Assembly (NCBI GenBank): GCA_964648765.1
Contig: CAZYLF010000001.1
Location: 229,797-293,796, forward strand
Direction: 5' to 3'
DNA: 64,000 nt
Source of the DNA: an uncultured Candidatus Saccharibacteria bacterium
GTDB taxonomy: Bacteria > Patescibacteriota > Minisyncoccia > Phycocordibacterales > JACOZG01
Below are positions 2,990-32,656 of the stretch, in pieces. Position numbers and translations under genes: made by a program. The number at the start of each line of letters is the position of its first letter. The first letter of the stretch is position 1. The notes under the pieces were generated by a model. That model was not told the DNA's origin. It searched no databases and saw only the letters and a program-made list of their open reading frames with translations.

Positions 2990-3030
2990 AAGACCCCGCG
3001 AACAAAAGTTCGCGGGGTGTTAGTTTTTTG
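2990..3030. terminator. Bidirectional intrinsic terminator (10-bp GC stem CCCCGCGAAC/GTTCGCGGGG)
   Basis: A perfect hairpin at 2994-3017 is flanked by an A-run upstream and a T-run downstream. It sits between the convergent pyrG gene and the AAA-CYTH gene. Confidence 0.6.
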
Positions 3031-3036
3031 CTTTAA

Positions 3037-4179
3037 TCAATCGTACGGTAACGCTGTATTTTTTGGTGGTCCAAATCGAGAGAGCTGATAGTTTGAGTAT
3101 CTGTCGTCGCCGGTGACTTCCTTACCTATGTCTAACCAAGGAGGTAAAACAATTGGTGCAGAGATATCAGAAACTTCAGCTTCGAGCAAAATTAAACCAT
3201 CGAGTTCAGGGTCCTTACTTACAAAATGATCAAGTTCAAAACGTTGATCACCCAAAATAAAGCAAACTCGAATTTTGGCGATCGGTGAGCAGTCAGGATC
3301 TTTTCGATTTAAGTAATACTCATACTCATTGCGGCCGATTCGCCACTCCTCCTCATCGCGTATACCGAGTGACACTTTTCGCTTTATTGTGCGAAAATAT
3401 AATCCCACTCCTTTGTATGACCAAAGTCTCACTCGCTCTTCATCACCCTCATTACTTGGAAGAAGATAATGTTGCTTGATCTGAATAACTTCATAGTGAA
3501 CAGGAAAGTTATCAAAATCGGGCAGAGAATTTACTTTCCATTTTCGTTCTTTTTCAAGTGGTTTTGGGATTCCGATGATGTTGCAAACATGGTCAAGCGT
3601 TTTTTTGTACTTAAGCTCAAAATCATCTTCAGCTGGAATGATGACGTGATGTGGATGACCACACCAAGCATTTTGTACTTTGGCATCACGCTCACGAGCC
3701 AAACTCTCATTTTCAGTACGTGCCGGATTATTAGCTCGAGTATAGTGAGCCTCAGCACCACAAGCAGCACTGCGTAAGTGGAGTACGGCGTCATAACGAT
3801 TAATCAATTCTCCAACTTCAGTACCAAGCTCACGAGCAATGATCTGAAACTCATGCGGTTCCACATAAGCCAAACAATCAAGAGCCGCACGATCACAAAG
3901 GAGAATGCTTTGTTCACCATCTTTAACCATCTGCTCTAAACTGTGGAGCATAATATCTTCAAGATGAAGAATGGTGGCCAATACTGAATACTGAAAAAAA
4001 GTAATCTTTAACCCCTTCTCGCCAACATTTACTCCGTGGGTTAGCAGTAAAGTGGCCGTTTCCGGCACCAAAACCACACGCACTCCACGCTCACCCAAAA
4101 ACTGGATTAAACGAGTCATTATGGTAGTTTTGCCACCACCAGGGCCGCCAGTAAGCACAATTACTTTAGGTTTTATCAA
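3037..4179 (-). CDS. P-loop ATPase/kinase (AAA_28/NadR-like) fused to C-terminal CYTH (triphosphate tunnel metalloenzyme) domain
   Basis: The start is TTG with an AGGAGGTG RBS. The N-terminus has Walker A VLTGGPGGGKTT. The C-terminal half has EKERKWKV (the CYTH ExExK signature), a later LLEAEV acidic strand and other CYTH-like strands. Confidence 0.6.
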   Translation of the reverse strand: MIKPKVIVLTGGPGGGKTTIMTRLIQFLGERGVRVVLVPETATLLLTHGVNVGEKGLKITFFQYSVLATILHLEDIMLHSLEQMVKDGEQSILLCDRAALDCLAYVEPHEFQIIARELGTEVGELINRYDAVLHLRSAACGAEAHYTRANNPARTENESLARERDAKVQNAWCGHPHHVIIPAEDDFELKYKKTLDHVCNIIGIPKPLEKERKWKVNSLPDFDNFPVHYEVIQIKQHYLLPSNEGDEERVRLWSYKGVGLYFRTIKRKVSLGIRDEEEWRIGRNEYEYYLNRKDPDCSPIAKIRVCFILGDQRFELDHFVSKDPELDGLILLEAEVSDISAPIVLPPWLDIGKEVTGDDRYSNYQLSRFGPPKNTALPYD

Positions 4180-4264
4180 GGTCCACCTCCTATTTAAAGG
4201 CCAAATTTTGTTTCTTTCAAGAAACTCTAACTCGAATATAGTTTAAGGAAGCGCAATTTGCAAG

Positions 4265-4297
4265 CAATAAAAAATCGCGCTCGGGGTGAGCGCGATA
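4265..4297 (-). terminator. Intrinsic terminator downstream of NUDIX gene
   Basis: A 9-bp stem ATCGCGCTC/GAGCGCGAT is followed by a T-run on the minus strand. Confidence 0.5.
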
Positions 4298-4306
4298 ATA
4301 CAAGTG

Positions 4307-4891
4307 TTACATATTCATTAGCAATTTTACCCTTGGATCGTTGACGACACTAAAAAGTTTGATGTCCACTAGTACTCCAGGTGGTGGGTGATGCAGAAAG
4401 TGATCTGCCTTATCTAGTGGAATGCGGAGCACTTCAATATCCTCACCAGTTTCAAGTTTTGGCTCAATCACTTTAACCGCGTTGAGGCCCAAGTAAACCA
4501 CCATTTGGTCTTCAAGTAACCCAGCATTGAACGGTCCCTGAAAGAGTGGCCCTGGCATAATCGTGGCCGTGTAACCCGTTTCCTCAAGCAGTTCTCGCCC
4601 GGCAAGTTCCACCTCACTTTCCCCGGATTGATCCATTAGCCCGGCGCAAAGTTCTATAACCCAAGCCTGGGCGGGCACACGATAAGTTTTGGTGAGGATG
4701 ATCTCACGATCCGCGGTGACTGCGGCCACGGCGACGATTCTTCCGTGTGTTTTACGTTTAACGCATTCCCATAAACCTTTACCTCCGTCTCGTTTATTAA
4801 CAAAACGGCGGCTAACAACTGAAATGAATTTGCCACTGAAAACTGTTTCTTCCTCCGTGACGATAATCGTTGACTCTCTTTGCTCTGGCAC
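4307..4891 (-). CDS. NUDIX hydrolase
   Basis: A Nudix box GX5EX7RELLEETGY is present (GESEVELAGRELLEETGYTA). Confidence 0.8.
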   Translation of the reverse strand: MPEQRESTIIVTEEETVFSGKFISVVSRRFVNKRDGGKGLWECVKRKTHGRIVAVAAVTADREIILTKTYRVPAQAWVIELCAGLMDQSGESEVELAGRELLEETGYTATIMPGPLFQGPFNAGLLEDQMVVYLGLNAVKVIEPKLETGEDIEVLRIPLDKADHFLHHPPPGVLVDIKLFSVVNDPRVKLLMNM

Positions 4892-7235: not shown

Positions 7236-8297
7236 CTAATGGCCAAAAAATCCTCGGCCAAAAGTGTCAGGCATCATGAGGAGCTTAATCCTACGGGCGG
7301 TACAAAGATCAATTACTTTTTGATCATTTTTTGACCCGCTGGTGGTAAAAATCATTTCTACCCCGGCATCAATCAAATGTGCCACGGCATCATTAAATGG
7401 AAAGAATGAGTCGCTATACGCAACGGCACCTCTCATGTGGTGACCGGCGTCTTTTGCGATCATTACCGCAAGTTTAGCTGCCAGCTTCCTGCTTGTTTGC
7501 CCAGAGGCATTGGCGATGATCTGATCGTGCTTGGCAAGTGTGATGGTGTTACTTTTGCTGGTTGATCCAACGGCATAAGCCAGAAGGGCGTTTTTCATCA
7601 TATGTGGCTCAATCTTATCTACGCTGTGGTCAACGATTTCTGACATCATCCCTGGAATTGGGATAAAAGTAAAATTATCCTGCATCAATACTCCACCACG
7701 AACATGGCGAAGAAGACATTCTCGGTCTAAACTCTCCCGACTTAAATTCCGCAATGCTTCATTTTTGGCTAGTCTGGGACGTTTACCTGATTTGCTCTCA
7801 AGAATTTGTAGCACCTCGTCTCGGTCTTCAAAATCTGGAGCCACAACACATGAAAGCATTTTAGCTGCGCTCAAAGCCCTGGCCTCTTTTGGCGTGACTG
7901 TGAAGTTACAAATTACTCCACCACCAAAGATTGCTTCGCGGTCACCACTTAGCATGTGCCAGATTGCATCATACGCTTCGTGCGCTATGCCAGCTCCGCA
8001 CACAGTGCTATGCTTGGCACCTACGCAGATCAGTGGCATGGCATTGTAATTTGCATGCATCACAGCTCCAATTGTGGCGACGGTGCGTACCAGTGCATCA
8101 TGTTGGCATATGTCGTTGTACCCTAACGTCTCAAGACTGGGATGAAAAAGAAACTTACAAAACGAAAGTGGATCGTCATTTTCTCCTTCCGTTTCAAGAT
8201 GGAGAGTGGCCTGTTGTCGAGGGTTCTCACCGTATTTTAGTTTATGGGTTTTCCACCCCGGCTGAACCAACGTATGACCTTTTTCTTCATCTGCCAT
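7236..8297 (-). CDS. Stand-alone AICAR transformylase domain protein (PurH C-terminal domain homologue)
   Basis: The KYGENPRQ motif matches PurH LRYGENPHQ. The C-terminus SDSFFPFNDAV...GVEMIFTTSGSKNDQKVIDLC...RGFFGH matches the PurH C-terminus. No IMP cyclohydrolase (MGS) domain is present. GC content is visibly higher than in neighbouring genes. Confidence 0.7.
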   Translation of the reverse strand: MADEEKGHTLVQPGWKTHKLKYGENPRQQATLHLETEGENDDPLSFCKFLFHPSLETLGYNDICQHDALVRTVATIGAVMHANYNAMPLICVGAKHSTVCGAGIAHEAYDAIWHMLSGDREAIFGGGVICNFTVTPKEARALSAAKMLSCVVAPDFEDRDEVLQILESKSGKRPRLAKNEALRNLSRESLDRECLLRHVRGGVLMQDNFTFIPIPGMMSEIVDHSVDKIEPHMMKNALLAYAVGSTSKSNTITLAKHDQIIANASGQTSRKLAAKLAVMIAKDAGHHMRGAVAYSDSFFPFNDAVAHLIDAGVEMIFTTSGSKNDQKVIDLCTARRIKLLMMPDTFGRGFFGH

Positions 8298-18189: not shown

Positions 18190-19245
18190 TTATTGGCACT
18201 GCGGACTTTTAGTTCTTGATGGATACGCGGCTAAAAGAGCATCCAACGTGTCGTAGGATTTCAAATAGCTGGCACTCAAACTTTTCCATCCATCGCACGC
18301 TTCTGGGTAGTAGTATTTTGAGCTGTAATATGAGGACGTATAAAACTTTCCAGTTGATTGCGTAGTAGCTGGAGGGGCTGTCTGGGTGCTTGTGTTTGAG
18401 CTTGTCGTGTCTCCATTACAAGTAGTCGGGGACCAAAGACCCAACTGGGCTGTCTGTGCGGATTTTTGTGCCGTCTTAAACTCCGCTTGGTATTTGTAAG
18501 GAGTGTTGTAGGTGTACTCGTGAGCATACCCCTGCTCAATCATAGATTTGTTGTAGAAAAGCCCGTCATCCCGATAGACATAGGCAAGGAGGCGGTCATA
18601 CTTATCTCTCTCGCCTTGAGTTGGGTCTATTTCTATCCGCACCTTTTTTCCAGAGAGCAATTCTTTTCCTTTGTTTGATGCCTCTTTACCGAAACACTGA
18701 ACGGGCTTTCTTGGGTCCACTGTCTCTGGTGTATCCAATCCGATGAGGCGTAGCGTTTCCACTTTCCCATTCATACTGATTTTAATCGTGTCTCCGTCTA
18801 CAACTTCTGTAACAGAGTAGTAGGTATATTGAGACGAAGATGGCTGTGCGGTTGCAGGTTTGGTCGTAACTACTGGTGTCTCCGTCTTTGCTTGCGTTAC
18901 GGCAGGAGCTGGAGCATTAGGAGTTGTTGTAGCAGTATCTATTGGGTTTGGTGCAACATTATTTTGGCTCTGCGTCTGTGTTGAGATGACATTATCTGCC
19001 ACCTGCGTAGGCGTAGTGTTTCCAGAAATCAATAAAATGGCAGAGAAAAAAGTGATGAGACAGAGAGCTCCTGTCGCTGTGTATTTCCAGCTTTTCTTAT
19101 CTATGAGCTTGTAAGCAACGAACGCTCCTACTGCATACACTATCGTATTGGGTAAAGCGATGATTGCGATTATAAAAATGATGAGGGCGATACCCATCTG
19201 GTATCCAGTGGAGAGTGCTTTATATTTTGAGATTATATTTTTCAT
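18190..19245 (-). CDS. Membrane-anchored secreted thermonuclease (SNase/micrococcal nuclease family)
   Basis: The C-terminal domain LRLIGLDTPETVDP...CFGKEAS...GKKVRIEIDPTQGERDKYDRLLAYVY matches the SNase fold with catalytic D/E/R residues. A Thr-rich linker and TM helix precede it. The start is taken at the internal ATG 19245 before the TM helix. The ORF extends to 19395. Confidence 0.7.
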   Translation of the reverse strand: MKNIISKYKALSTGYQMGIALIIFIIAIIALPNTIVYAVGAFVAYKLIDKKSWKYTATGALCLITFFSAILLISGNTTPTQVADNVISTQTQSQNNVAPNPIDTATTTPNAPAPAVTQAKTETPVVTTKPATAQPSSSQYTYYSVTEVVDGDTIKISMNGKVETLRLIGLDTPETVDPRKPVQCFGKEASNKGKELLSGKKVRIEIDPTQGERDKYDRLLAYVYRDDGLFYNKSMIEQGYAHEYTYNTPYKYQAEFKTAQKSAQTAQLGLWSPTTCNGDTTSSNTSTQTAPPATTQSTGKFYTSSYYSSKYYYPEACDGWKSLSASYLKSYDTLDALLAAYPSRTKSPQCQ

Positions 19246-19525
19246 AGTAATAGTAATAAAAAATCGCCCTAATAGTTTGGGCAATTTGTTTTTTTCCAAC
19301 AAAAAGCCCATCACAAGGAAGGTCCTTTCGGATACCTCTGCACGAGTTTCCCCGTGCAACGACGTGAACGCCCTTATGATGGGTTCTCTGTTCACGTCGT
19401 TTTATGACCATATCTCAAGAAAATCTCTTGAGGGTTAGGTCCCACTGCATATTCAGTTGTGCCTACATTTAACCACACTTCTTATCAATTTCAAAGAAAA
19501 ATGATAGGATGCTGTTACTATTACT

Positions 19526-20260
19526 ATGACAATTACGATTGAAGAAAAGTTCATAAAGGATGCACGCTTGATATTGGACGAGCTCCAAGCGGAGCTTATA
19601 GCTTCCAAAGACGGCATCATACGTTACCTTTTTATAAAGGAAGACAAAGCACCCAACGAGCGAGAGCAGAGACGTATCATTCGTTGGCTTATAAACGCAG
19701 GGGCACTTCAATCTATTGGAGAAATACACGAAGACCTACCATCTATTTTTGTTACGCTTAATCCATTCGTTAAAACTGCTACTATCGGATTTCGGTTAGG
19801 TATAGATAAAACACTTTTTGCCGAGGTGAGAAAAATCTGCGAAAGTGATTTGAGTAAAAAATCAGCCAAAGAACTTTTGGACCAAGTAGAAACACTGGGC
19901 AGAGCGAAACGCCTTGAAACTCAAAAACTAACGGAGCCAGAGAAAGTCGTCATCAAACCATTTCTTGATGAACCAAGTAAGACAGTCATTCTTGCTGGAA
20001 AAAAATCTACAATCCCCGTTGGCAATCAGTGGGTTTTATGCAAAGAGCTTTTTAATAAACCAGCAAGCGATTGGGTGAAAGAAAATGATGTGGTCCACCT
20101 TTTTAACAAAGACGGCAAGCAGAGTTTCTACGATGCACAGCGTCTACTCAATGCTCGCATAGAAAAAGATTTGGGCATAAAGGATTTCATTGAATATGAG
20201 ACAGCTATGGCGAGGATAAACCCAAAAACGATTGAAAAACTGAACCATTCAGAAAAATAG
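19526..20260 (+). CDS. Hypothetical protein
   Basis: A 244-aa ORF. It is the first plus-strand gene of the element after a divergent intergenic region. Confidence 0.5.
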   Translation: MTITIEEKFIKDARLILDELQAELIASKDGIIRYLFIKEDKAPNEREQRRIIRWLINAGALQSIGEIHEDLPSIFVTLNPFVKTATIGFRLGIDKTLFAEVRKICESDLSKKSAKELLDQVETLGRAKRLETQKLTEPEKVVIKPFLDEPSKTVILAGKKSTIPVGNQWVLCKELFNKPASDWVKENDVVHLFNKDGKQSFYDAQRLLNARIEKDLGIKDFIEYETAMARINPKTIEKLNHSEK

Positions 20261-20309
20261 AGATTTCTGACTCACGAATGAGTCAAACGAACACAGGTAC
20301 GCTCAAGGC

Positions 20310-20663
20310 GTGCCTTTTTCGTTCCCAAAAATTGCACACATTATTAGCCAATATCCAATTACAATGACCAACAAAAAAACCAAAAGGTCATCAACAACCG
20401 ATGGACAAAAAGAAGCTCCGCCAAATGACCCCACGGCGGTGTTCACTACTTATGACCTCGGTGTATCCACCGCACTTTTGTGTGCGGATTTTGAGCTTGT
20501 CTCGGTAGACAAAGAGAACCCACGAAAAGCATTATTCATCTTCAAGAAAGCAGACGGCATTGAAGATGTTGCGAACCGATACTTTTCGGACAGGTTAGAA
20601 GTCAAAGCAAGGTCGTTCTTTGACCATCTCAAAGCTCTCAAGAATAAGCTTTATTCCGAGTAG
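20310..20663 (+). CDS. Hypothetical protein
   Basis: A GTG start at 20310. An alternative ATG lies at 20364. Confidence 0.4.
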   Translation: MPFSFPKIAHIISQYPITMTNKKTKRSSTTDGQKEAPPNDPTAVFTTYDLGVSTALLCADFELVSVDKENPRKALFIFKKADGIEDVANRYFSDRLEVKARSFFDHLKALKNKLYSE

Positions 20664-20665
20664 CT

Positions 20666-20851
20666 ATGCAGTTAGCGGATGAACATATCAAAGAGTTTCA
20701 GGTGCTCTACAAAAAGCACTACGGCGTTGAAATAAGCACTGCCGAAGCTCTGGAAAAAGGCATACGTCTCATCCGCTTGATGGAGATTGTTTTGAAGCAC
20801 GAAGCAAAGAAACAAGCGACACAGACGGTCCCAACTCCGATTACCAATTAA
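20666..20851 (+). CDS. Small hypothetical protein (61 aa, helical)
   Basis: The ORF is tightly packed between its neighbours. Confidence 0.35.
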   Translation: MQLADEHIKEFQVLYKKHYGVEISTAEALEKGIRLIRLMEIVLKHEAKKQATQTVPTPITN

Positions 20852-20861
20852 AAAAATAATT

Positions 20862-23051
20862 ATGAACCTATCAAACATTACAATCAAAGAATATCTTACC
20901 GAGAAAGGCATACCCTTTCGTGAGAGTGGCAAAGAGCTCATCGCCAAGTGCCTTTTCAATGATTGCGACAGAGACAGCAAAGGTGATGAAGCTCACCTTT
21001 ATTTCAGCACGGAAACAGGACAATATGATTGCAAAAAATGCGGCGAAAAAGGAAACCTGCTTACGCTCGCAAAACATCTTGGCGATACAGGACCGAAACC
21101 ACGCAAGGCAAATGCTTTCAATGCCGAGCTCGTAGAGAAATGTCATCTTGCACTGCCACCCCATATCAGAGAGTACCTGCACAAGCGTGGGCTTACGGAT
21201 GCCGTTATAGACGATTATAAGCTCGGTTACGGGCAGTTCTACCGCAAGCCGTGGATTACTATCCCTATCAAAGACATCTACGGCAACTATTCATTTTTCA
21301 AATTGAGACAGGACCCAGCGTTCGGCAACGACAAAATCACTTTCCCGAAAGGAGCGGAAGCCCAGCTTTATGATTGGGAAACTCTCGTAAAAAGTGATGT
21401 GAACAAGCCAATGATTATCAGTGAGGGTGAGATGGACCGATTGCTTCTCATTTCAAAAGGAGTGCCAGCGATAACCTCCACTCACGGAGCGATGACATTC
21501 AAAGATGAGTGGGTTGAAAAAGTCGGCAAAGACAGAAAAATCTACATCTGCTTTGATAACGACGACGCTGGCAAAAAAGGGTCCGAACGAGTAGCAAAGA
21601 TGGTGGAAAATGGTGGATGCGAGACACACATCATCACACTTCCCGAAGAAGTCGGAGAGCACGGAGACATCACAGATTATTTCGTGAAGCTCAATGGGTC
21701 CGTAGATGATTTGTTCAGCAAATACGCAAAGCCATACCCAGAAAAAATTGATACCACACAATTTTCTGCGATGAGTTCGGAGCAACTCTTGGACACCCTC
21801 GGACTTACCATCAAATACGATGCCGAAAATAAGCTGGCTACTTTCCTTTGCGAGCTGTCGGCTTATACAGAAAGCTCACAGTTTAATATCAGTTATAATG
21901 CACCATCTTCAACAGGTAAAAGCTATATACCGACAGAGATAGCTCGCCTATTCCCAGAGGATGACGTGATGGAGATTGCTTACTGCTCACCCACAGCTTT
22001 TTTCCACGATGTCGGGCAGTATGACAAGGAAAAGAACAGCTACTTGGTAGACCTCTCACACAAGATACTCATCTTCTTGGACCAACCGCACAACGAACTG
22101 CTTGCCCGATTGCGTCCACTCCTGTCGCACGACAAGAAAGAGATTGCTATCAAAATCACCGACAAGACCCAAAAGAATGGGACCAAAACAAAGAACATCC
22201 TTTTGCGTGGCTATCCATCCGTTATTTTCTGCACGGCTGGGCTCCGCATAGACGAGCAAGAAGCGACACGTTTTCTGCTTCTCTCTCCAGAGGTCAATCA
22301 AGACAAAATACAGCAAGGTATCAGTGCCACTATTCTCAAAGAAGCAGACACTGATAGTTTCAAAAGCTGGCTTGAAGAAAACCCAGACCGAGCATTACTC
22401 AAAGAGCGTATCCGTGCTATCAAACTGGAGAACGTTAAAGAGATAAACATCGCATCGCACGAAACTATCAAAGAGAGGTTTCTGAAAAATAACAAGACAC
22501 TCAAGCCACGCCACCAACGAGACATCAAACGTCTTTTGTCTCTCATCAAATCCTTTGCCATCCTCAATGTCTGGTGGCGAGAAAGAGATGGGTCCACGAT
22601 TACTGCGAATGAAGATGACATCAATGATGCTTTCAAGCTCTGGGACAAAATATCTGTGAGTCAGGAGTTGAACTTGCCCCCTTACATCTACAATCTCTAC
22701 AAAGAGGTCATATTGCCAGCGTGGGAGGCAAAAAACGACAGCAGGAGCGAGGCGTTTGAGGAACTCACAGGCAAGCTCGGGCTCTCACGCCAAGAGGTCC
22801 TCGGGAAGCATTTTGCGGTATACGGCAGGATGCTTGATAGCCATCAACTCCGTCAACAGATACTCCCTATGCTTGAAACAGCAGGGCTTATTGTGCAGGA
22901 ACAAGACCCGAGCGATAAACGCAAGATGATGATTTTCCCCTCTACCCTGTATCAACTTTCTGAACCAAAAGGAAATAGTGAGACGGACAGTGGGGTAAAA
23001 AACACCGAACAGAAAGACGATGAGATTATTAGCGATAACATAGATTTTTAA
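20862..23051 (+). CDS. DNA primase: zinc-binding domain + TOPRIM + C-terminal P-loop domain
   Basis: An N-terminal Cys cluster CLFNDC...CKKCGEKGN forms a primase-type zinc finger. TOPRIM motifs IISEGEMD and ICFDNDDAGKKG are present. Downstream lie a Walker-A-like APSSTGKS and a Walker-B-like ILIFLDQ. Confidence 0.7.
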   Translation: MNLSNITIKEYLTEKGIPFRESGKELIAKCLFNDCDRDSKGDEAHLYFSTETGQYDCKKCGEKGNLLTLAKHLGDTGPKPRKANAFNAELVEKCHLALPPHIREYLHKRGLTDAVIDDYKLGYGQFYRKPWITIPIKDIYGNYSFFKLRQDPAFGNDKITFPKGAEAQLYDWETLVKSDVNKPMIISEGEMDRLLLISKGVPAITSTHGAMTFKDEWVEKVGKDRKIYICFDNDDAGKKGSERVAKMVENGGCETHIITLPEEVGEHGDITDYFVKLNGSVDDLFSKYAKPYPEKIDTTQFSAMSSEQLLDTLGLTIKYDAENKLATFLCELSAYTESSQFNISYNAPSSTGKSYIPTEIARLFPEDDVMEIAYCSPTAFFHDVGQYDKEKNSYLVDLSHKILIFLDQPHNELLARLRPLLSHDKKEIAIKITDKTQKNGTKTKNILLRGYPSVIFCTAGLRIDEQEATRFLLLSPEVNQDKIQQGISATILKEADTDSFKSWLEENPDRALLKERIRAIKLENVKEINIASHETIKERFLKNNKTLKPRHQRDIKRLLSLIKSFAILNVWWRERDGSTITANEDDINDAFKLWDKISVSQELNLPPYIYNLYKEVILPAWEAKNDSRSEAFEELTGKLGLSRQEVLGKHFAVYGRMLDSHQLRQQILPMLETAGLIVQEQDPSDKRKMMIFPSTLYQLSEPKGNSETDSGVKNTEQKDDEIISDNIDF

Positions 23052-23055
23052 CACT

Positions 23056-23634
23056 ATGGAAGAAACATCACAAAAACAAATTGATGCCAACCGAGAGAAC
23101 GGCAAGAAAGGCGGAGTGAAGACCGACGAGGGCAAAGCTGTGAGCAAATATAACGCTATCAAACACGGTATTTTGAAAGAGGTCGTCTCTGATTACGAGC
23201 AGAGTTTCTACGAGGACATTATCGAACGTCTCAATGACCAATTCAGCCCCGTAGGAGTGCTTGAGAAGATGCTCGTGGACCGAGTGGGTGTGTATTACCT
23301 CAAGCTCTACCGAGTAGCAAAGGCAGAGAATGAGTATATGCAGTCGGTCCTCAATCCGAGAAAGGTTACAGTCAGAGACACCCTTGATATTGGGATGAAC
23401 TACACTGAAACCATAATAGAAAATGAGGGCTACATTCCAAAGGTCGGTTTGGGTCCAGTAGAAAAACTCTCCGACACTTATCTCCGCTACGAAATAGCGA
23501 TTGAGAACAGATTGTACAAAGCACTTCACGAACTCCAACGATTACAGTCAGCAAGAAATGGTGAAAAGGTCCCACCCCCATTAGCATTAGATATTGATGT
23601 GTCAGGAGAAAAGGAAAATGGGTTCGTTTCGTAA
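23056..23634 (+). CDS. Hypothetical protein
   Basis: A 192-aa ORF placed 4 nt after the primase stop. Confidence 0.45.
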   Translation: MEETSQKQIDANRENGKKGGVKTDEGKAVSKYNAIKHGILKEVVSDYEQSFYEDIIERLNDQFSPVGVLEKMLVDRVGVYYLKLYRVAKAENEYMQSVLNPRKVTVRDTLDIGMNYTETIIENEGYIPKVGLGPVEKLSDTYLRYEIAIENRLYKALHELQRLQSARNGEKVPPPLALDIDVSGEKENGFVS

Positions 23635-23773
23635 AAGTGAAAAACGCCATCCGTATTTGGTGTATTCACTCAAAAAGACGAAAAAAGCTCTCAACACAAA
23701 CGTAAAATGTCGGTTTTATTAGGGAAAATAGGGTAACAATCTCAAATGATTTCGGCAATTTATTTCCAAAACT

Positions 23774-24370
23774 ATGAGTAAAAGCGAAGCAGACAACGTG
23801 AAAAAAATCTCTACGGCTTTCCTAAAAAAGCACGGCTACTTCAAAGGGTGGAGGTCAGGTACGATTACTTGGACCAACAACGGCTTATGGGGTGAAAATA
23901 AAAGCAGTGTGGGGGTAGAGGTTTCTACATCAGATGGAGTGAGTCATCTCCGTATTACCTACACCCAGACAGACAGGGATACGGACGAAAAGAAAGAGTT
24001 TGATTACAAAGTACCACTCACCACTACCCCGTGCCGTTATGGAGGCGAGAGATACTGGTTTCTCTGTCCTCTGGTTAAAAATAATGTGCATTGTGGCAAA
24101 CGAGTAGGCACACTCTACAAAGACGGAGATTACTTTGGCTGTCGCCACTGCTATGACCTCGGCTATAGTTCTCAAAAAACCAATCACCGATACAAAATGC
24201 TACCCCTGTTCAACGTGTTCACGATTGAGAAGAAAATTGAGGAACTTCAAGGGCAGATAAAGCGTCCCCACTACGCTGGCAAGCCAACAAGAAAAGAAAG
24301 ACAGCTTGAAAAGCTATATGAACAGGTAAACACCAACTATGCTCAACTTTTACAAAAAAAATTGTTATAA
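23774..24370 (+). CDS. Hypothetical protein with Cys4 cluster (C..C...C..C)
   Basis: 198 aa. CPLVKNNVHCGKRVG...CRHC suggests a zinc ribbon. Confidence 0.45.
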   Translation: MSKSEADNVKKISTAFLKKHGYFKGWRSGTITWTNNGLWGENKSSVGVEVSTSDGVSHLRITYTQTDRDTDEKKEFDYKVPLTTTPCRYGGERYWFLCPLVKNNVHCGKRVGTLYKDGDYFGCRHCYDLGYSSQKTNHRYKMLPLFNVFTIEKKIEELQGQIKRPHYAGKPTRKERQLEKLYEQVNTNYAQLLQKKLL

Positions 24371-24519
24371 TGCTTATGTTGTCCCAGTTAGTAATTGTTT
24401 TGCCAGAGGTTTTTTATTGCAAAATGGAACCCGAGAGGGGCGTTCTGCCAACTATTTTGCAGTCCTCTGGATTACACTTATAGCTGGGACAACCAGAGCG
24501 TCCCTTTCGGGTTTTTAAT

Positions 24520-26172
24520 ATGAAAAAAGATAACGAAAAAATAAAATACTTTGTCTATGTGCGAAAATCTACCGAGGGCGTAGAGCGACAAGCACTCTCC
24601 ATTCCTGCACAGAAAGACCAGCTCGTAAAAGTGTTTGGACACTTGGATATTGAGTTCGTGGAAGACCGAGCAAGTGCTTTCAAGCCATTCAACCGCCCAG
24701 CTTTTGCAGATATGCTTGAGCGTATAAGAAAAGGAGAAAGGACTGGGCTTATTGCTTGGCATCCAGACCGCCTTTCACGAAATGAAAAAGACGCTGGCGA
24801 AATAACTTATATGATACGCACTGGCGTGATTGCAGAACTCAAGCTCGCTACCTACCAGTTTGAAAACACTCCCGAGGGTATTTGGATGCTCCAGATGGCA
24901 CTCTCTCAATCTCAATACGAAAGTGCAAAGAAAGGGCGAGACGTGAAGCGTGGGCTTGAACAGAGTGCAAAAATGGGCTTTTACCCTGCACCAGCACCTC
25001 TAGGTTACTTGGATGACAAATACAGCGAACGAGGTAAGAAAAAGAAATTGCCAGACCCAGACAGATTTGACCTTGTTCGTAAGATGTTTGATTTGATGCT
25101 CACTGGAGAACATACCCCACCTCAAATCAGAAGAATAGTGAACGAGGAGTGGGGGTTCAGAGGACCATACGGAAAAAAGATGAGTAACAGTGCCATCTAT
25201 AACCTTTTTACTCGCACATATTACTACGGCGAGTTTGAGTATCCTGTCGCAAGTGGAAAGTTTTACATTGGAAGTCATAAGCCGATGATTACCAGAGACG
25301 AGTACGAGAGGATACAGATATTGCTCGGTAGGAAAAATGCAACGAGATTGAAACAGCACGATATTATTTACCGAGGTCCAATGAGGTGTGGCGAATGTGG
25401 GGCGATGATTACTGCCGAAGAAAAGACAAAATATCAGAAGAACGGAAACACACATCACTACACCTACTACCACTGCACAAAGAGAAAGGACCCTAACTGT
25501 TCTCAAAAATCTATTGAGGAAAAGGAGCTTGAAAAACAAATTGCTAAAGAGCTTGGAAAGATAGAGATACCTGCGGACTTCAAAAACTGGGCTCTGGCAC
25601 GCTTGAAAACACAAAACTCACAAGAGGTTGATGACAGAGAAAAGATATATGGGTCCCAGAGGCGTGGATATGAGGCAGTAGTGCGAAAAATAGACAACCT
25701 CATTGATATGCGTGCAGACCAAGAAATAACCGAGGATGAGTTCAAACACAGAAAAGAAGTGTTGCTTGCAGAAAAATCCAAGTTCAAAGAGCTCCTCAAG
25801 GATACAGACACAAGAATTGATAAGTGGCTTGAGATAGCAGAGCGTGGCTTCAATTATTCAGAAAAAGCATCGGCTGTTTTTGCAGACATTGAAGACCCAA
25901 ACACTCTTGAAGCCAAGAAAGAGATATTTGCCACATTAGGTTCGGACCTCATCCTAAAAGACAGAATGTTGAGCTTTGAGTGGGATAAACTGCTATTTCC
26001 AATAAAAGAGATGGCAAAAGAGGTTCGTGGTATTCACGAAAGGTTAGAACCTCCGAAAAAGCCAATGACTACAAAGGAAATGGAAGAAATCTACTCACAA
26101 AATCCTAGATTGCTGCCGGCCAGGGACTCGAACCCCAATACCATCCTCCAGAGGGATGTGTCCTACCATTAG
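24520..26172 (+). CDS. Large serine recombinase (integrase)
   Basis: The N-terminal resolvase domain has a catalytic Ser in YVRKSTEG. A recombinase domain follows, then a zinc ribbon (CGECGAM...HHYTYYHCTKRKDPNC) and a coiled coil. The last ~20 codons are antisense to tRNA-Gln. Confidence 0.85.
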   Translation: MKKDNEKIKYFVYVRKSTEGVERQALSIPAQKDQLVKVFGHLDIEFVEDRASAFKPFNRPAFADMLERIRKGERTGLIAWHPDRLSRNEKDAGEITYMIRTGVIAELKLATYQFENTPEGIWMLQMALSQSQYESAKKGRDVKRGLEQSAKMGFYPAPAPLGYLDDKYSERGKKKKLPDPDRFDLVRKMFDLMLTGEHTPPQIRRIVNEEWGFRGPYGKKMSNSAIYNLFTRTYYYGEFEYPVASGKFYIGSHKPMITRDEYERIQILLGRKNATRLKQHDIIYRGPMRCGECGAMITAEEKTKYQKNGNTHHYTYYHCTKRKDPNCSQKSIEEKELEKQIAKELGKIEIPADFKNWALARLKTQNSQEVDDREKIYGSQRRGYEAVVRKIDNLIDMRADQEITEDEFKHRKEVLLAEKSKFKELLKDTDTRIDKWLEIAERGFNYSEKASAVFADIEDPNTLEAKKEIFATLGSDLILKDRMLSFEWDKLLFPIKEMAKEVRGIHERLEPPKKPMTTKEMEEIYSQNPRLLPARDSNPNTILQRDVSYH

Positions 26173-26183
26173 ACGAGCCGGCA
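26113..26183 (-). tRNA. tRNA-Gln (anticodon CUG)
   Basis: The minus-strand sequence TGCCGGC-TC-GTCT-AATGGTA-GGAC-A-CATCC-CTCTGGA-GGATG-GTAT-TGGGG-TTCGAGT-CCCTG-GCCGGCA-G folds as a cloverleaf. It has a U1-A72 pair, U8, GG in the D-loop, a TTCGAGT T-loop and a G73 discriminator. CCA is not encoded. Confidence 0.75.
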
Positions 26184-31567: not shown

Positions 31568-31666
31568 TAGTTATTAAGAGTGTGGCGAGAGAATTGGCTC
31601 GATGACCCACCAGCAACCCTTATCAATAAGAAGGTGCTCCCAACCCCGTAAGCGGGGGAAGATAAT
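31568..31666 (+). promoter_or_regulatory. SAM-I (S-box) riboswitch-like aptamer upstream of metK
   Basis: The sequence TTATTAAGAGTGTGGCGAGAGA...GGCTCGATGACCC...GCAACC...GGTGC...CCCCGTAAGCGGGGG...AGATAA matches the conserved SAM-I blocks UUAUCAAGAG, GGCCCGAUGA, GCAACC, GGUGC, a P4 hairpin and the 3' P1 strand. Confidence 0.5.
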
Positions 31667-31672
31667 TTTTTT

Positions 31673-31720: not shown

Positions 31721-32656
31721 ATGCAAAAAACAGCTGAATTTGTGAGCCCAAGTCATCCAGACAAAAAATGTGATTTTATTGCCGACAGTATTTTAGATGC
31801 GTATCTTAAGGGTGATAAGGAGAGCAGAGTGGCCGTGGAGGTGATGGGCGGACATAAATTAATTTGTGTTAATGGCGAAGTGACGTCATTGGCGAAGCCA
31901 GATATTAAGTTATTGGTAAAACAAATTGTGGGTAGTGAGTACAAAGTAATCGTTAATCTTGTGACACAAAGCAGAGAAATTTCTCAAGGTGTGGACACTG
32001 GTGGGGCTGGTGATCAGGGGATAATGAAGGGCTTTGCAACTTCCGAGACGAAGACTTTAATGCCGAGAGAGTATGAACTTGCGCGCACGCTTTGCCAAAA
32101 AATTTATGAGGTTTACCCATTTGACGGAAAGACTCAAGTAACTTTGGAAGGTGAAAAAATTAAAACAGTGGTGGCGAGTTTTCAAAATAGTAAAAACAAA
32201 GACTTGTTGAATTTGGTGAAAAAAATAGTAAAAGCTGAAGAATATTTTATTAATCCCGCTGGCGAGTGGAAGCAAGGTGGCTTTGATGCTGATACGGGGT
32301 TATCGGGTAGAAAGTTGATCGTGGATAATTATGGTCCAGAGATTACGATTGGTGGTGGGTCATTCTCGGGTAAAGATTACACCAAAGTGGATCGGTCGGG
32401 AGCCTATATGGCCAGGCGCGTGGCGGTGGATTTGCTTAAAGCGCGTAAGGCCAAAAATGTTTATACCAAACTTGCTTATGCGATAGGCAAAAGTGAGCCG
32501 GTGATGGCGGTGGCACTTGTGGATGGCAAGGAAGAGATAATTACGGGTTACGATTTATCTCCACTTGGGATCCGTAAGGCATTAAAATTGGATAAGGTTA
32601 AATATACTAATACTTGTGTTTGGGGACATTTTGGCCGCAAATTCCCTTGGGATTAG
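31721..32656 (+). CDS. metK: S-adenosylmethionine synthetase (short form, 311 aa)
   Basis: SHPDKKCDFIADSILDAYL, GDQGIMKGFA and GGGSFSGKDYTKVDRSGAYMARRVA match MetK signatures. The protein is about 75 aa shorter than typical MetK. Confidence 0.8.
   Translation: MQKTAEFVSPSHPDKKCDFIADSILDAYLKGDKESRVAVEVMGGHKLICVNGEVTSLAKPDIKLLVKQIVGSEYKVIVNLVTQSREISQGVDTGGAGDQGIMKGFATSETKTLMPREYELARTLCQKIYEVYPFDGKTQVTLEGEKIKTVVASFQNSKNKDLLNLVKKIVKAEEYFINPAGEWKQGGFDADTGLSGRKLIVDNYGPEITIGGGSFSGKDYTKVDRSGAYMARRVAVDLLKARKAKNVYTKLAYAIGKSEPVMAVALVDGKEEIITGYDLSPLGIRKALKLDKVKYTNTCVWGHFGRKFPWD

What the first reader, a model, noticed from the sequence alone, without database searches (positions are those of the whole stretch)
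3037..4891. P-loop kinase/ATPase-CYTH fusion next to a NUDIX hydrolase
The 380-aa protein combines an N-terminal Walker-A NTPase (VLTGGPGGGKTT, NadR/AAA_28-like) with a C-terminal CYTH domain. The CYTH signature ExExK appears as EKERKWKV, plus a later acidic beta-strand LLEAEV. A NUDIX hydrolase with a canonical Nudix box is immediately upstream. A weakly insulating terminator lies between them.
CYTH enzymes hydrolyse triphosphates or act as cyclases, and NUDIX enzymes cleave nucleoside-diphosphate-X. The pair could be a nucleotide-signal generation/degradation couple or part of NAD salvage. This combination is uncommon.
Basis: partly seen in the sequence, partly recalled or inferred. Interest (0 to 1): 0.55.

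Follow-up and report, generated by a model that had tools for sequence, protein, structure and literature searches.

The report
Kinase–CYTH fusion enzyme; NUDIX neighbour incidental
The gene encodes an ordinary member of a very large, biochemically uncharacterised protein family that joins a thymidylate-kinase-like P-loop domain to an intact triphosphate-tunnel (CYTH) domain, and the neighbouring NUDIX gene is a chance neighbour rather than a partner.

Summary
A 380-aa ORF (3037-4179, minus strand) joins an N-terminal AAA_28 P-loop domain to a C-terminal CYTH domain. A 194-aa NUDIX gene lies 127 bp upstream on the same strand.

- Pfam's CYTH model misses this protein.
- The protein matches the solved CYTH enzyme NeuTTM (E 3.5e-6 alone, 2e-19 as a family profile).
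- A confident AlphaFold model (pLDDT 89) has NeuTTM as its best fold match.
- The ExExK glutamates are about 90% conserved across 155 diverse homologues.

- The fusion is common: 2,677 cluster representatives at E<1e-30 and at least 311 species genomes, from Prevotella, Clostridia, Bacilli and candidate-phyla bacteria to protists.
- Automatic annotation already names it, and Drosophila TTD14 is described with the same layout.
- The NUDIX pairing is not conserved (2 of 136 immediate neighbours in 79 loci).
- A good intrinsic terminator, a promoter-like site and a ribosome-binding site separate the two genes.
- The N-domain resembles thymidylate kinases, not NadR.

Most likely it is a stand-alone two-site enzyme: a kinase-type phosphotransferase plus a metal-dependent tripolyphosphatase-like domain. 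Its substrates are unknown. I class it as a new member of a known kind, of modest interest.

The parts
3037..4179 (-). Gene for the 380-aa AAA_28-CYTH two-domain protein (TTG start)
   Evidence: ORF. Identical protein P0001 is in public data. The AF2 model has pLDDT 89.4 and pTM 0.86.
3568..4179 (-). N-terminal P-loop kinase-like domain (aa 1-204), Pfam AAA_28, thymidylate-kinase/dNK fold
   Evidence: Pfam AAA_28 E 7.7e-19. Foldseek finds thymidylate kinases with target-normalised TM about 0.7. The domain profile matches TMPK 3ld9 at E 3e-5.
4126..4149 (-). Walker A, GGPGGGKT (aa 11-18), with the family-typical Pro at the third position
   Evidence: G11, G16 and K17 are conserved in 98% and P13 in 95% of 155 homologues.
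3889..3894 (-). D96-R97, the 'DRX' motif after the Walker B strand
   Evidence: D96 is 97% and R97 99% conserved. The motif aligns with the CDRF/DRY motif of thymidylate kinases.
3070..3567 (-). C-terminal CYTH / triphosphate-tunnel domain (aa 205-370), NeuTTM-like
   Evidence: phmmer vs PDB 3typ/2fbl E 3.5e-6. Family profile E 2e-19. Foldseek E 1e-10 at 31% identity. 24 of 61 family members hit Pfam CYTH.
3541..3555 (-). ExExK motif, E209-K-E211-R-K213
   Evidence: Aligns with NeuTTM E4/E6/K8. Conserved at 89%, 91% and 86% (+8% Arg).
3175..3183 (-). Acidic strand E333-A-E335 (LLEAEV), equivalent to NeuTTM E114/E116
   Evidence: Alignment. Each residue is 92% conserved.
4186..4191 (-). Shine-Dalgarno AGGAGG, 6 nt before the TTG start
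   Evidence: Sequence read.
4235..4263 (-). Promoter-like site TTGCAA-17-TATATT upstream of the fusion gene
   Evidence: Consensus scan, 9 of 12 matches. This is a pattern match only.
4264..4296 (-). Intrinsic-terminator-like hairpin plus U-run between the NUDIX gene and the fusion gene
   Evidence: 9-bp stem, 6 G-C pairs, U6 tail. -15.4 kcal/mol, z = -5.4, and 0 of 200 shuffles fold as well.
4307..4891 (-). NUDIX hydrolase gene (194 aa), ADP-ribose/ADP-sugar pyrophosphatase-like. An adjacent gene, not a demonstrated partner.
   Evidence: PF00293. Best NCBIfam match is NudE-like, below cutoff. PDB ADP-ribose pyrophosphatase 8wv3 E 4.7e-9 and NUDT5 E 1.6e-8.
4571..4642 (-). Nudix box GLMDQSGESEVELAGRELLEETGY (aa 84-107), with GX6E spacing
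   Evidence: Regex match. Aligned with a one-residue gap against 8wv3.
2993..3018 (.). Bidirectional terminator hairpin between the fusion gene and the convergent CTP synthase gene
   Evidence: 11-bp stem, 8 G-C pairs, T-runs on both strands. -22.4 kcal/mol, z = -7.3.

Best explanation
The gene encodes a typical bacterial member of a very large, conserved two-domain family: an AAA_28 P-loop domain followed by a CYTH domain. It is expressed as its own transcription unit and works independently of the NUDIX gene upstream.

Shown:
- The N-domain has a thymidylate-kinase/deoxynucleoside-kinase-type fold. It carries a complete Walker A, an invariant Glu after strand 2 (E40), a DR motif (D96-R97) and a lid-like loop with invariant R154 and E156.
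- The C-domain is a NeuTTM-like eight-stranded triphosphate tunnel with all 15 key residues present: ExExK, the Tyr-Lys dyad Y238/K266, R249, R251, K302, R304, and the acidic pairs E276/E278, E315/D317 and E333/E335.

Inferred:
- The N-domain performs a kinase-type phosphoryl transfer from an NTP to a phosphate- or hydroxyl-bearing nucleotide-like acceptor.
- The C-domain binds a triphosphate ligand and hydrolyses it in a Mg2+/Mn2+-dependent way. The ligand is most probably inorganic tripolyphosphate, as for NeuTTM.
- The two domains are rigidly packed, so that the tunnel domain either gates the kinase site or handles its triphosphate substrate or product.

The true substrates are unknown.
For: Domain identities.

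Confident single-body model: pLDDT 89.4, pTM 0.86, with 8-9 beta strands in aa 208-354 and a C-terminal helix.

Catalytic residues in 155 representatives at <=50% identity:
- P-loop set conserved at 97-100%.
- CYTH set conserved at 86-99%.
- 122 of 155 keep all 15 CYTH residues; the window protein scores 15/15 and 10/10.

Family size and spread: 2,677 representatives at E<1e-30, and the top 150 all match at full length. At least 311 loci occur in species genomes across Bacteroidota, Bacillota and many candidate-phyla lineages. Protists also carry it.

Independence from NUDIX:
- tblastn of the window NUDIX hits only its own locus among 84 loci.
- 136 immediate neighbours fall in 138 Pfam families, none seen more than 4 times, and NUDIX twice.
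- No neighbour cluster is conserved across lineages.
- A terminator, a promoter-like site and an SD lie between the genes.

Literature:
- The DRX arginine clamps donor and acceptor phosphates in dTMPK-fold kinases (PMC12995831).
- In AtTTM1 the tunnel domain packs into the kinase substrate site (PMC9582702).
Against: - No biochemical data exist for any bacterial member, and no substrate is indicated by gene context.
- Pfam CYTH does not detect this particular protein.
- The eukaryote-type subgroup keeps the P-loop set but has lost most CYTH catalytic residues. In the plant fusion AtTTM1 the tunnel is also inactive (PMC9582702). Tunnel catalysis is therefore not essential to the architecture everywhere, and the domain could be mainly regulatory.
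- The inter-domain geometry comes from one AlphaFold model whose coordinates and PAE I could not inspect.
- Read-through of the terminator cannot be excluded from sequence alone.
Confidence: 0.6

Rival explanations
1. Regulatory-tunnel model. The P-loop domain is the only catalytic or nucleotide-binding engine. The CYTH domain acts mainly as a sensor for a (tri)phosphate-bearing ligand that switches the P-loop domain on or off, as proposed for AtTTM1 and as implied by TTD14.
For: The P-loop residue set is retained in all subgroups, while about 11 eukaryote-type representatives have only 4-9 of the 15 CYTH residues. AtTTM1 has a catalytically incompetent tunnel whose loops insert into the kinase substrate site (PMC9582702). 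TTD14 binds GTP and phosphoinositides (PMC4624897). pTM 0.86 suggests a fixed domain interface.
Against: In the window protein and in 79% of representatives every catalytic CYTH residue is kept, including the metal-binding glutamates and the Tyr-Lys dyad. That pattern implies selection for catalysis, not binding alone.
Confidence: 0.2
2. Short-chain polyphosphate enzyme. The dTMPK-fold domain transfers phosphate between nucleotides and inorganic oligophosphates (for example NTP + PPi <-> NDP + PPPi), as PPK2 and PPK3 do with polyP. The fused tunnel domain binds or hydrolyses the tripolyphosphate.
For: The N-domain is nearest to thymidylate kinases and keeps the P-loop, DRX motif and lid. dTMPK-fold kinases have repeatedly been recruited as polyphosphate kinases (PMC12995831). 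The C-domain is nearest to the specific tripolyphosphatase NeuTTM (PMC3440374).
Against: No ppk, ppx or CHAD genes appear among 136 immediate neighbours. No positively charged polyP cleft was examined. The idea rests purely on analogy.
Confidence: 0.12
3. The CYTH fusion and the NUDIX hydrolase form a couple that generates and degrades a nucleotide signal, with CYTH acting as a cyclase or triphosphatase and NUDIX as the degrader.
For: The genes are adjacent on the same strand, 127 bp apart. Some CYTH proteins are class IV adenylyl cyclases (PMC3440374, PMC8233210).
Against: - Adjacency is not conserved.
- The genes are separated by a -15.4 kcal/mol terminator with a U6 tail, a promoter-like site and an SD.
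- The nearest CYTH relatives are tripolyphosphatases, and no class IV cyclase is among the top 50 fold matches.
- There is no PADLOC defence-system match beyond the P-loop.
Confidence: 0.04
4. NAD-salvage model. The AAA_28 domain is a NadR-type ribosylnicotinamide kinase working with an ADP-ribose pyrophosphatase.
For: AAA_28 is the Pfam family that holds the NadR kinase domain (my own knowledge; Pfam hit). The NUDIX protein is most similar to ADP-ribose/ADP-sugar pyrophosphatases.
Against: The family profile matches NadR only at E 0.48 over the P-loop, whereas thymidylate kinases score 3e-5 over 100 residues. The NUDIX neighbour is not conserved. No NAD-related genes recur next to homologues.
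Confidence: 0.04

Closest known systems
NeuTTM (NE1496, Nitrosomonas europaea; PDB 2FBL/3TYP), a specific inorganic tripolyphosphatase of the CYTH/TTM superfamily
   Same: It is the best sequence and fold match of the C-domain: E 3.5e-6 single, 2e-19 profile, Foldseek 1e-10 at 31% identity. All its named catalytic residues have equivalents: E4/E6/K8 = E209/E211/K213, Y28 = Y238, K52 = K266, K85/R87 = K302/R304, E114/E116 = E333/E335.
   Different: NeuTTM is a stand-alone protein of about 150 aa. Here the domain is fused behind a 200-aa P-loop kinase-like domain. Activity and specificity are untested.
Drosophila TTD14 (CG30118), a GTP- and phosphoinositide-binding regulator of TRPL channel trafficking
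   Same: The paper describes the same order and spacing of domains: a P-loop with Walker A at aa 73-80 and CYTH at aa 279-437. It also describes a conserved Pro at the third Walker A position (P75), matching the GGPxxGKT signature here, where P13 is 95% conserved (PMC4624897).
   Different: TTD14 is eukaryotic and has an N-terminal extension. The eukaryote-type relatives I could examine have lost most CYTH catalytic residues, whereas the window protein keeps all of them. I could not obtain the TTD14 sequence, so direct homology was not tested.
Arabidopsis AtTTM1/AtTTM2 (PDB 7Z67), a P-loop kinase plus TTM tandem module
   Same: The architecture is kinase followed by tunnel domain. 7z67 is the fifth Foldseek hit and covers both domains. 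The tunnel domain packs tightly against the kinase (PMC9582702).
   Different: The plant kinase is uridine/cytidine-kinase-like, not AAA_28. Its ExExK is QxQ and catalytically dead, and it has a C-terminal membrane anchor. Overall superposition is poor (12% identity, TM 0.28, rmsd 21 A), so this is probably an independent fusion.
Thymidylate kinases and deoxynucleoside kinases (P-loop kinase class), and the Pfam AAA_28 family that includes the NadR ribosylnicotinamide kinase domain
   Same: The fold matches (target-normalised TM about 0.7). The P-loop, the Glu after strand 2 and the DRX motif align with TMPK sequences. Pfam AAA_28 scores above its gathering threshold.
   Different: Sequence identity is only 16-20%. 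The protein reaches no dTMP kinase NCBIfam cutoff. NadR itself is barely detectable (E 0.48). The acceptor substrate is unknown.
ADP-ribose / ADP-sugar pyrophosphatases (NudF, NudE, NUDT5, B. methanolicus ACT), for the neighbouring NUDIX gene
   Same: These are the best PDB matches, at 5e-9 to 2e-8 over about 150 residues. The REx2EExG core of the Nudix box is intact.
   Different: The protein falls below the NCBIfam equivalog cutoffs. It has one extra residue in the Nudix box, and its substrate is untested.

Membership tests
CYTH / triphosphate tunnel metalloenzyme superfamily | N-terminal ExExK motif | tested here: met
   E209-K-E211-R-K213 is present and aligns with the NeuTTM ExExK. It is conserved at 89%, 91% and 86% (+8% R) in 155 homologues.
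CYTH / triphosphate tunnel metalloenzyme superfamily | Significant match to the Pfam CYTH profile PF01928 | tested here: inconclusive
   The window protein gives no hit even at E<=10. However, 24 of 61 aligned family members hit PF01928 (best 4.7e-8), and many database relatives carry precomputed PF01928.
CYTH / triphosphate tunnel metalloenzyme superfamily | Sequence homology to an experimentally characterised CYTH enzyme | tested here: met
   NeuTTM 3typ/2fbl scores E 3.5e-6 with the single sequence and 2.1e-19 with the family profile.
CYTH / triphosphate tunnel metalloenzyme superfamily | Eight-stranded beta-barrel/tunnel fold with basic residues lining it and acidic metal ligands | tested here: met
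   The AF2 model has strands at 208-216, 229-239, 246-255, 258-270, 273-281, 300-309, 312-319 and 330-335. Foldseek top hits are NeuTTM, PH1819, AtTTM3 and SaTTM. R249, R251, K266, K302, R304 and the acidic pairs are 89-99% conserved.
CYTH / triphosphate tunnel metalloenzyme superfamily | Divalent-cation-dependent hydrolysis (or cyclisation) of a triphosphate substrate | not testable with these tools
   This needs an enzyme assay.
Class IV (CyaB-type) adenylyl cyclase | Closest relatives are CyaB/AC-IV cyclases | tested here: not met
   No AC-IV structure is among the top 50 Foldseek PDB matches. The nearest relatives are tripolyphosphatases. NeuTTM has no significant cyclase activity (PMC3440374).
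Pfam AAA_28 (P-loop NTPase/kinase) | Profile match above the gathering threshold, plus Walker A | tested here: met
   68.9 bits against a cutoff of 27 over aa 7-187. GGPGGGKT is 95-98% conserved.
P-loop kinase class (dTMPK/dNK-like) | P-loop, DRX motif arginine and lid region on a dTMPK-type fold | tested here: met
   Fold match to TMPK and dCK. D96-R97 aligns with the TMPK CDRF motif. R97 is 99% and R154 100% conserved. The lid-like loop at aa 136-157 has lower pLDDT.
NadR-type ribosylnicotinamide kinase | Specific similarity to the NadR kinase domain beyond the P-loop | tested here: not met
   NadR (8x7f) scores E 0.48 over aa 5-31 only. It is absent from the list at E<=10 with the full-length profile.
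TTD14-like P-loop-CYTH proteins | Same domain order and spacing, and a GxPxxGKT Walker A | tested here: inconclusive
   Architecture and Walker A signature agree with the description in PMC4624897, and eukaryotic full-length relatives exist. No TTD14 sequence was available for direct comparison, and no hit carried that name.
NUDIX hydrolase (neighbour gene) | Pfam NUDIX above threshold, and the Nudix box GX5EX7REUXEEXGU | tested here: met
   32.3 bits against a cutoff of 21.1. The box is present with GX6E spacing, one extra residue.
Functional gene pair / operon NUDIX + AAA_28-CYTH | Conserved adjacency across genomes | tested here: not met
   The window NUDIX is found only in its own locus among 84 loci. 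A Nudix-box ORF lies within 5 kb in 3 of about 80 loci. NUDIX is 2 of 136 immediate neighbours. The closest homologues P0002, P0005 and P0006 have no NUDIX neighbour.
Functional gene pair / operon NUDIX + AAA_28-CYTH | Co-transcription | tested here: inconclusive
   The sequence suggests separate units: a terminator at -15.4 kcal/mol with U6, a promoter-like site and an SD. Transcript data are needed.

The most novel reading that the evidence does not exclude
The AAA_28-CYTH family, thousands of members from gut Bacteroidota and Firmicutes to candidate-phyla bacteria and protists, may be an unrecognised enzyme of inorganic triphosphate or short-chain polyphosphate metabolism. In this reading a dTMPK-fold kinase makes or consumes PPPi (or a nucleoside tetraphosphate-type product), and the fused NeuTTM-like tunnel binds and hydrolyses it. 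The bacterial form would be the catalytically complete ancestor of animal TTD14, whose biochemical function is unknown.
Probability: 0.12. Interest if true: 0.6.

Novelty: new member of a known kind. Interest (0 to 1): 0.28.

Why it matters
As found, it matters little for this window. The gene is one more member of a widespread family that annotation already recognises ('CYTH domain-containing protein/predicted ATPase'), and the suggested NUDIX partnership does not hold.

The family itself is a reasonable target for function discovery:
- It is very large and is present in abundant gut bacteria such as Segatella copri.
- It survives in genome-reduced candidate-phyla bacteria.
- It keeps two complete catalytic sites, yet no bacterial member has been assayed.
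- Its fly relative TTD14 has a trafficking phenotype with no known chemistry.

Knowing the substrates of a bacterial member would also bear on the long-standing question of whether inorganic triphosphate is a real metabolite.

Tried and rejected
- Pfam on the isolated C-domain at E<=10 found nothing. CYTH had to be established through PDB sequence search, the family profile and fold.
- The locus search with the 9-sequence alignment failed because no stretch was conserved enough. It worked with the 61-sequence alignment.
- PADLOC gave only P-loop noise. PHROGs gave an unknown-function CYTH family and a thymidylate kinase family.
- I looked for a split version of the fusion, meaning stand-alone AAA_28 next to stand-alone CYTH. 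Three loci of the closest stand-alone AAA_28 proteins showed none.
- Three cluster look-ups and a second database search seeded with eukaryote-type members found no protein named TTD14.
- A literature search for AAA_28/PF13521 returned only noise. COG3911/COG2954 returned nothing relevant. The founding CYTH paper (Iyer & Aravind 2002) is not held, so I cite it only through PMC8233210.
- I considered and rejected a defence-system reading and a cyclase/second-messenger reading. There is no conserved context, and the nearest relatives are tripolyphosphatases.
Full report
**1. The observation**

Both ORFs are present as described.
- The fusion ORF is 3037..4179 on the minus strand, 380 aa. It has a TTG start, and AGGAGG lies 6 nt upstream.
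- The NUDIX ORF is 4307..4891 on the same strand, 194 aa, with a GTG start.
- The quoted strings are there: VLTGGPGGGKTT at aa 8-19, EKERKWKV at aa 209-216, and LLEAEV at aa 331-336.
- An identical protein (P0001) exists in public assemblies on a 553-kb contig. The closest relative (P0002, 40% identity) is from a Patescibacteria MAG.

**2. Domain identities**

N-terminal domain:
- Pfam places aa 7-187 in AAA_28 (E 7.7e-19, 68.9 bits against a cutoff of 27).
- In the AlphaFold model the N-domain superposes on thymidylate kinases and deoxycytidine kinase (target-normalised TM about 0.7).
- A profile of the N-domain alone matches thymidylate kinases (3ld9, E 3e-5). It aligns the P-loop, 'VPExAT' with the TMPK 'TREPGGT', and 'CDRG' with the TMPK 'CDRF'.
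- NadR appears only at E 0.48 over the P-loop. 'NadR-like' is therefore true only in the sense of sharing a Pfam family.

C-terminal domain:
- Pfam's CYTH model does not see this protein, even when the C-domain is scanned alone at E<=10.
- The protein matches the solved CYTH enzyme NeuTTM (NE1496, PDB 3typ/2fbl) at E 3.5e-6 over aa 209-367.
- A profile of 61 family members matches NeuTTM at E 2.1e-19.
- 24 of those 61 members hit PF01928 directly.

AlphaFold model and fold search:
- The model was built from 9 homologues and is confident (pLDDT 89.4, pTM 0.86).
- It has a beta-rich C-domain with eight main strands and a terminal helix.
- Foldseek against the PDB ranks NeuTTM first (E 1e-10, 31% identity).
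- The Arabidopsis TTM1 kinase-plus-tunnel module (7z67) ranks fifth.
- Other tunnel enzymes follow: PH1819, AtTTM3 and SaTTM.

**3. Residue-level check**

The NeuTTM alignment maps its functional residues onto the window protein as follows.

| NeuTTM | Window protein |
|---|---|
| E4 / E6 / K8 | E209 / E211 / K213 |
| Y28 | Y238 |
| R39 / R41 | R249 / R251 |
| K52 | K266 |
| E61 / E63 | E276 / E278 |
| K85 / R87 | K302 / R304 |
| E114 / E116 | E333 / E335 |

Y28 and K52 are the proposed catalytic dyad of NeuTTM (PMC3440374).

Conservation across 155 representatives, each standing for a cluster at 50% identity:
- CYTH positions are conserved at 86-99%. E209 is 89%, E211 91%, and K213 86% plus 8% Arg.
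- The P-loop set (G11, G16, K17, E40, D96, R97, R154, E156, K190) is conserved at 97-100%.
- 122 of 155 keep all 15 CYTH residues.

**4. How common is the fusion?**

For the fusion itself this is wrong.
- An exhaustive HMM search of 1.84 billion cluster representatives found 16,446 hits at E<=0.001 and 2,677 at E<1e-30.
- The best 150 all match along the full length, and nearly all are 340-530 aa.
- Hosts include many Prevotella and Segatella copri, Muribaculaceae, Clostridia, Ruminococcus, Terrisporobacter and Bacilli.
- Candidate-phyla lineages are also represented: Saccharibacteria, Azambacteria, Taylorbacteria, Kaiserbacteria, Paceibacterota and Niyogibacteria.
- Eukaryotic members come from Cyanophora, Gloeochaete, Diphylleia, Rhodelphis and a red alga.
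- JGI annotation already names these proteins 'CYTH domain-containing protein/predicted ATPase'.
- NCBIfam has no dedicated model for the family.

**5. Is the NUDIX neighbour a partner?**

Evidence from homologous loci:
- The three closest homologues on usable contigs (P0002, P0005, P0006) have no NUDIX neighbour.
- tblastn of the window's NUDIX against 84 loci finds only its own locus.
- Nudix-box ORFs occur within 5 kb in about 3 of 80 loci. Only one of these (L013) lies close to the fusion gene (about 340 bp), and it is divergently oriented.
- The 136 immediate neighbours of 79 loci hit 138 different Pfam families. None is seen more than 4 times (dNK and ABC_tran), and NUDIX is seen twice.
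- All-against-all clustering of flanking ORFs shows no neighbour conserved across lineages.

Evidence from the window's 127-bp spacer:
- It holds a hairpin with a 9-bp stem and 6 G-C pairs, at -15.4 kcal/mol and z = -5.4, followed by U6.
- A promoter-like TTGCAA-17-TATATT and the AGGAGG ribosome-binding site follow it.

By sequence this is an ordinary, reasonably strong intrinsic terminator rather than a weak one. Its efficiency can only be measured.

The NUDIX protein itself looks like a routine ADP-ribose/ADP-sugar pyrophosphatase:
- Its best PDB matches are 8wv3 (E 4.7e-9) and NUDT5 (E 1.6e-8).
- Its best NCBIfam match is NudE-like and falls below the cutoff.
- Its Nudix box has one extra residue (GX6E).

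**6. Mechanism**

Shown:
- The protein has two complete sets of catalytic residues on two confidently predicted folds that pack as one body.
- The N-domain has the P-loop, the DRX motif and a lid-like loop characteristic of dTMPK-class kinases.
- In those kinases the DRX arginine clamps the donor and acceptor phosphates (PMC12995831).

Inferred:
- The N-domain performs a kinase-type phosphoryl transfer rather than mere NTP hydrolysis.
- The tunnel domain hydrolyses a triphosphate, most probably PPPi, using Mg2+ or Mn2+. Its nearest relative NeuTTM does this and shows no cyclase activity (PMC3440374).

What connects the two activities is unknown. I considered three options:
- Two housekeeping activities joined for co-regulation.
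- A tunnel that gates the kinase, as proposed for AtTTM1, where tunnel loops insert into the kinase substrate site (PMC9582702).
- A short-chain polyphosphate phosphotransferase-hydrolase pair, by analogy with dTMPK-fold polyphosphate kinases (PMC12995831).

One evolutionary observation bears on this. About 11 representatives keep all P-loop residues but only 4-9 of the 15 CYTH residues. Those with an identified source are protist sequences, and most carry N-terminal extensions of 75-118 aa. The P-loop activity therefore looks like the constant core, and tunnel catalysis is dispensable in that branch. In bacteria, including here, it is retained.

**7. Comparison with known systems**

- **Iyer and Aravind 2002.** CYTH fused to nucleotide kinases has been noted since this paper, as cited in PMC8233210.
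- **Drosophila TTD14.** It is described as a P-loop (Walker A at aa 73-80, with conserved P75) plus a CYTH domain (aa 279-437), and it binds GTP and PtdIns(3)P (PMC4624897). The order, the spacing and the unusual Pro at the third Walker A position all match this family, where P13 is 95% conserved. I could not obtain the TTD14 sequence, so direct homology is untested.
- **AtTTM1/2.** They share the layout but use a uridine-kinase-type domain and an inactive tunnel. Superposition is poor (12% identity, TM 0.28), so this is probably an independent fusion.

**8. Verdict**

The domain calls are right. The claims of rarity, of NUDIX coupling and of NadR or cyclase function are not supported.

The protein is a new member of a known, annotated but biochemically uncharacterised family. 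Interest is modest for this window. The family as a whole is a fair target for enzymology.

Noticed in passing
family-wide (P0008, P0009, P0038, P0108, P0127, P0140, P0141, P0147, P0150, P0161, P0166): A subgroup of the fusion family keeps 10/10 P-loop residues but only 4-9 of 15 CYTH catalytic residues (P0009 is N-terminally truncated and scores 5/10). The ExExK is replaced by, for example, RxHxV or KxFxK. Most members carry 75-118-aa N-terminal extensions, and several come from protists (Diphylleia, Cyanophora, Gloeochaete).
   Followed up: partly
family-wide (P0004, P0005, P0023, P0048, P0081): Five representatives carry a paired change of the two Mg2+-site residues: Walker A GKT->GKD, and D96->N in the DRX motif. 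All CYTH residues are kept. This may be a compensatory swap of the metal ligand.
   Followed up: no
P0183 (631 aa, JGI metagenome): One relative has protein-kinase domains (PF07714/PF00069) fused in front of the AAA_28-CYTH module.
   Followed up: no
L002:5113-10149: In the locus of homologue P0006 the fusion gene sits directly after a DHFR gene, and a dCMP deaminase gene lies about 2.5 kb downstream. Many ORFs there have no Pfam hit, so the locus may be viral or from a candidate-phyla bacterium with a nucleotide-metabolism neighbourhood. Deoxynucleoside kinase genes are immediate neighbours in 4 of 79 loci.
   Followed up: partly
window 19319-19441 (-): Rfam LOOT RNA match (72 bits against a gathering score of 46.4). 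It overlaps the annotated GTG start region of the 401-aa ORF 18190-19395, so that ORF start is probably over-extended.
   Followed up: no
window 31568-31668 (+): SAM riboswitch (S-box) aptamer, 59.8 bits, just upstream of the 311-aa ORF 31721-32656.
   Followed up: no
window 7236-8297 (-): A 353-aa ORF matches only the AICARFT/IMPCHase domain of PurH (profile positions 71-309) and appears to lack the N-terminal MGS-like part. It stands alone rather than in a purine operon.
   Followed up: no
window 2993-3018: A perfect 11-bp G+C-rich hairpin with T-runs on both strands (-22.4 kcal/mol). It serves as a bidirectional terminator between the fusion gene and the convergent CTP synthase gene.
   Followed up: yes
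window 20001-26000: Strong positive AT skew (0.19-0.22) over 6 kb, coinciding with the long plus-strand ORFs 20862-23051 and 24520-26172. tRNA-Gln lies at 26112-26183 (-) and overlaps the end of the second ORF.
   Followed up: no
L085:2626-4657 and L003:747-2063: A beta-CASP/RMMBL metallo-beta-lactamase gene (RNase J/CPSF-like) lies immediately upstream of a stand-alone AAA_28 relative (P0015). A similar gene lies about 4 kb from the fusion gene P0005. This may be coincidence.
   Followed up: no
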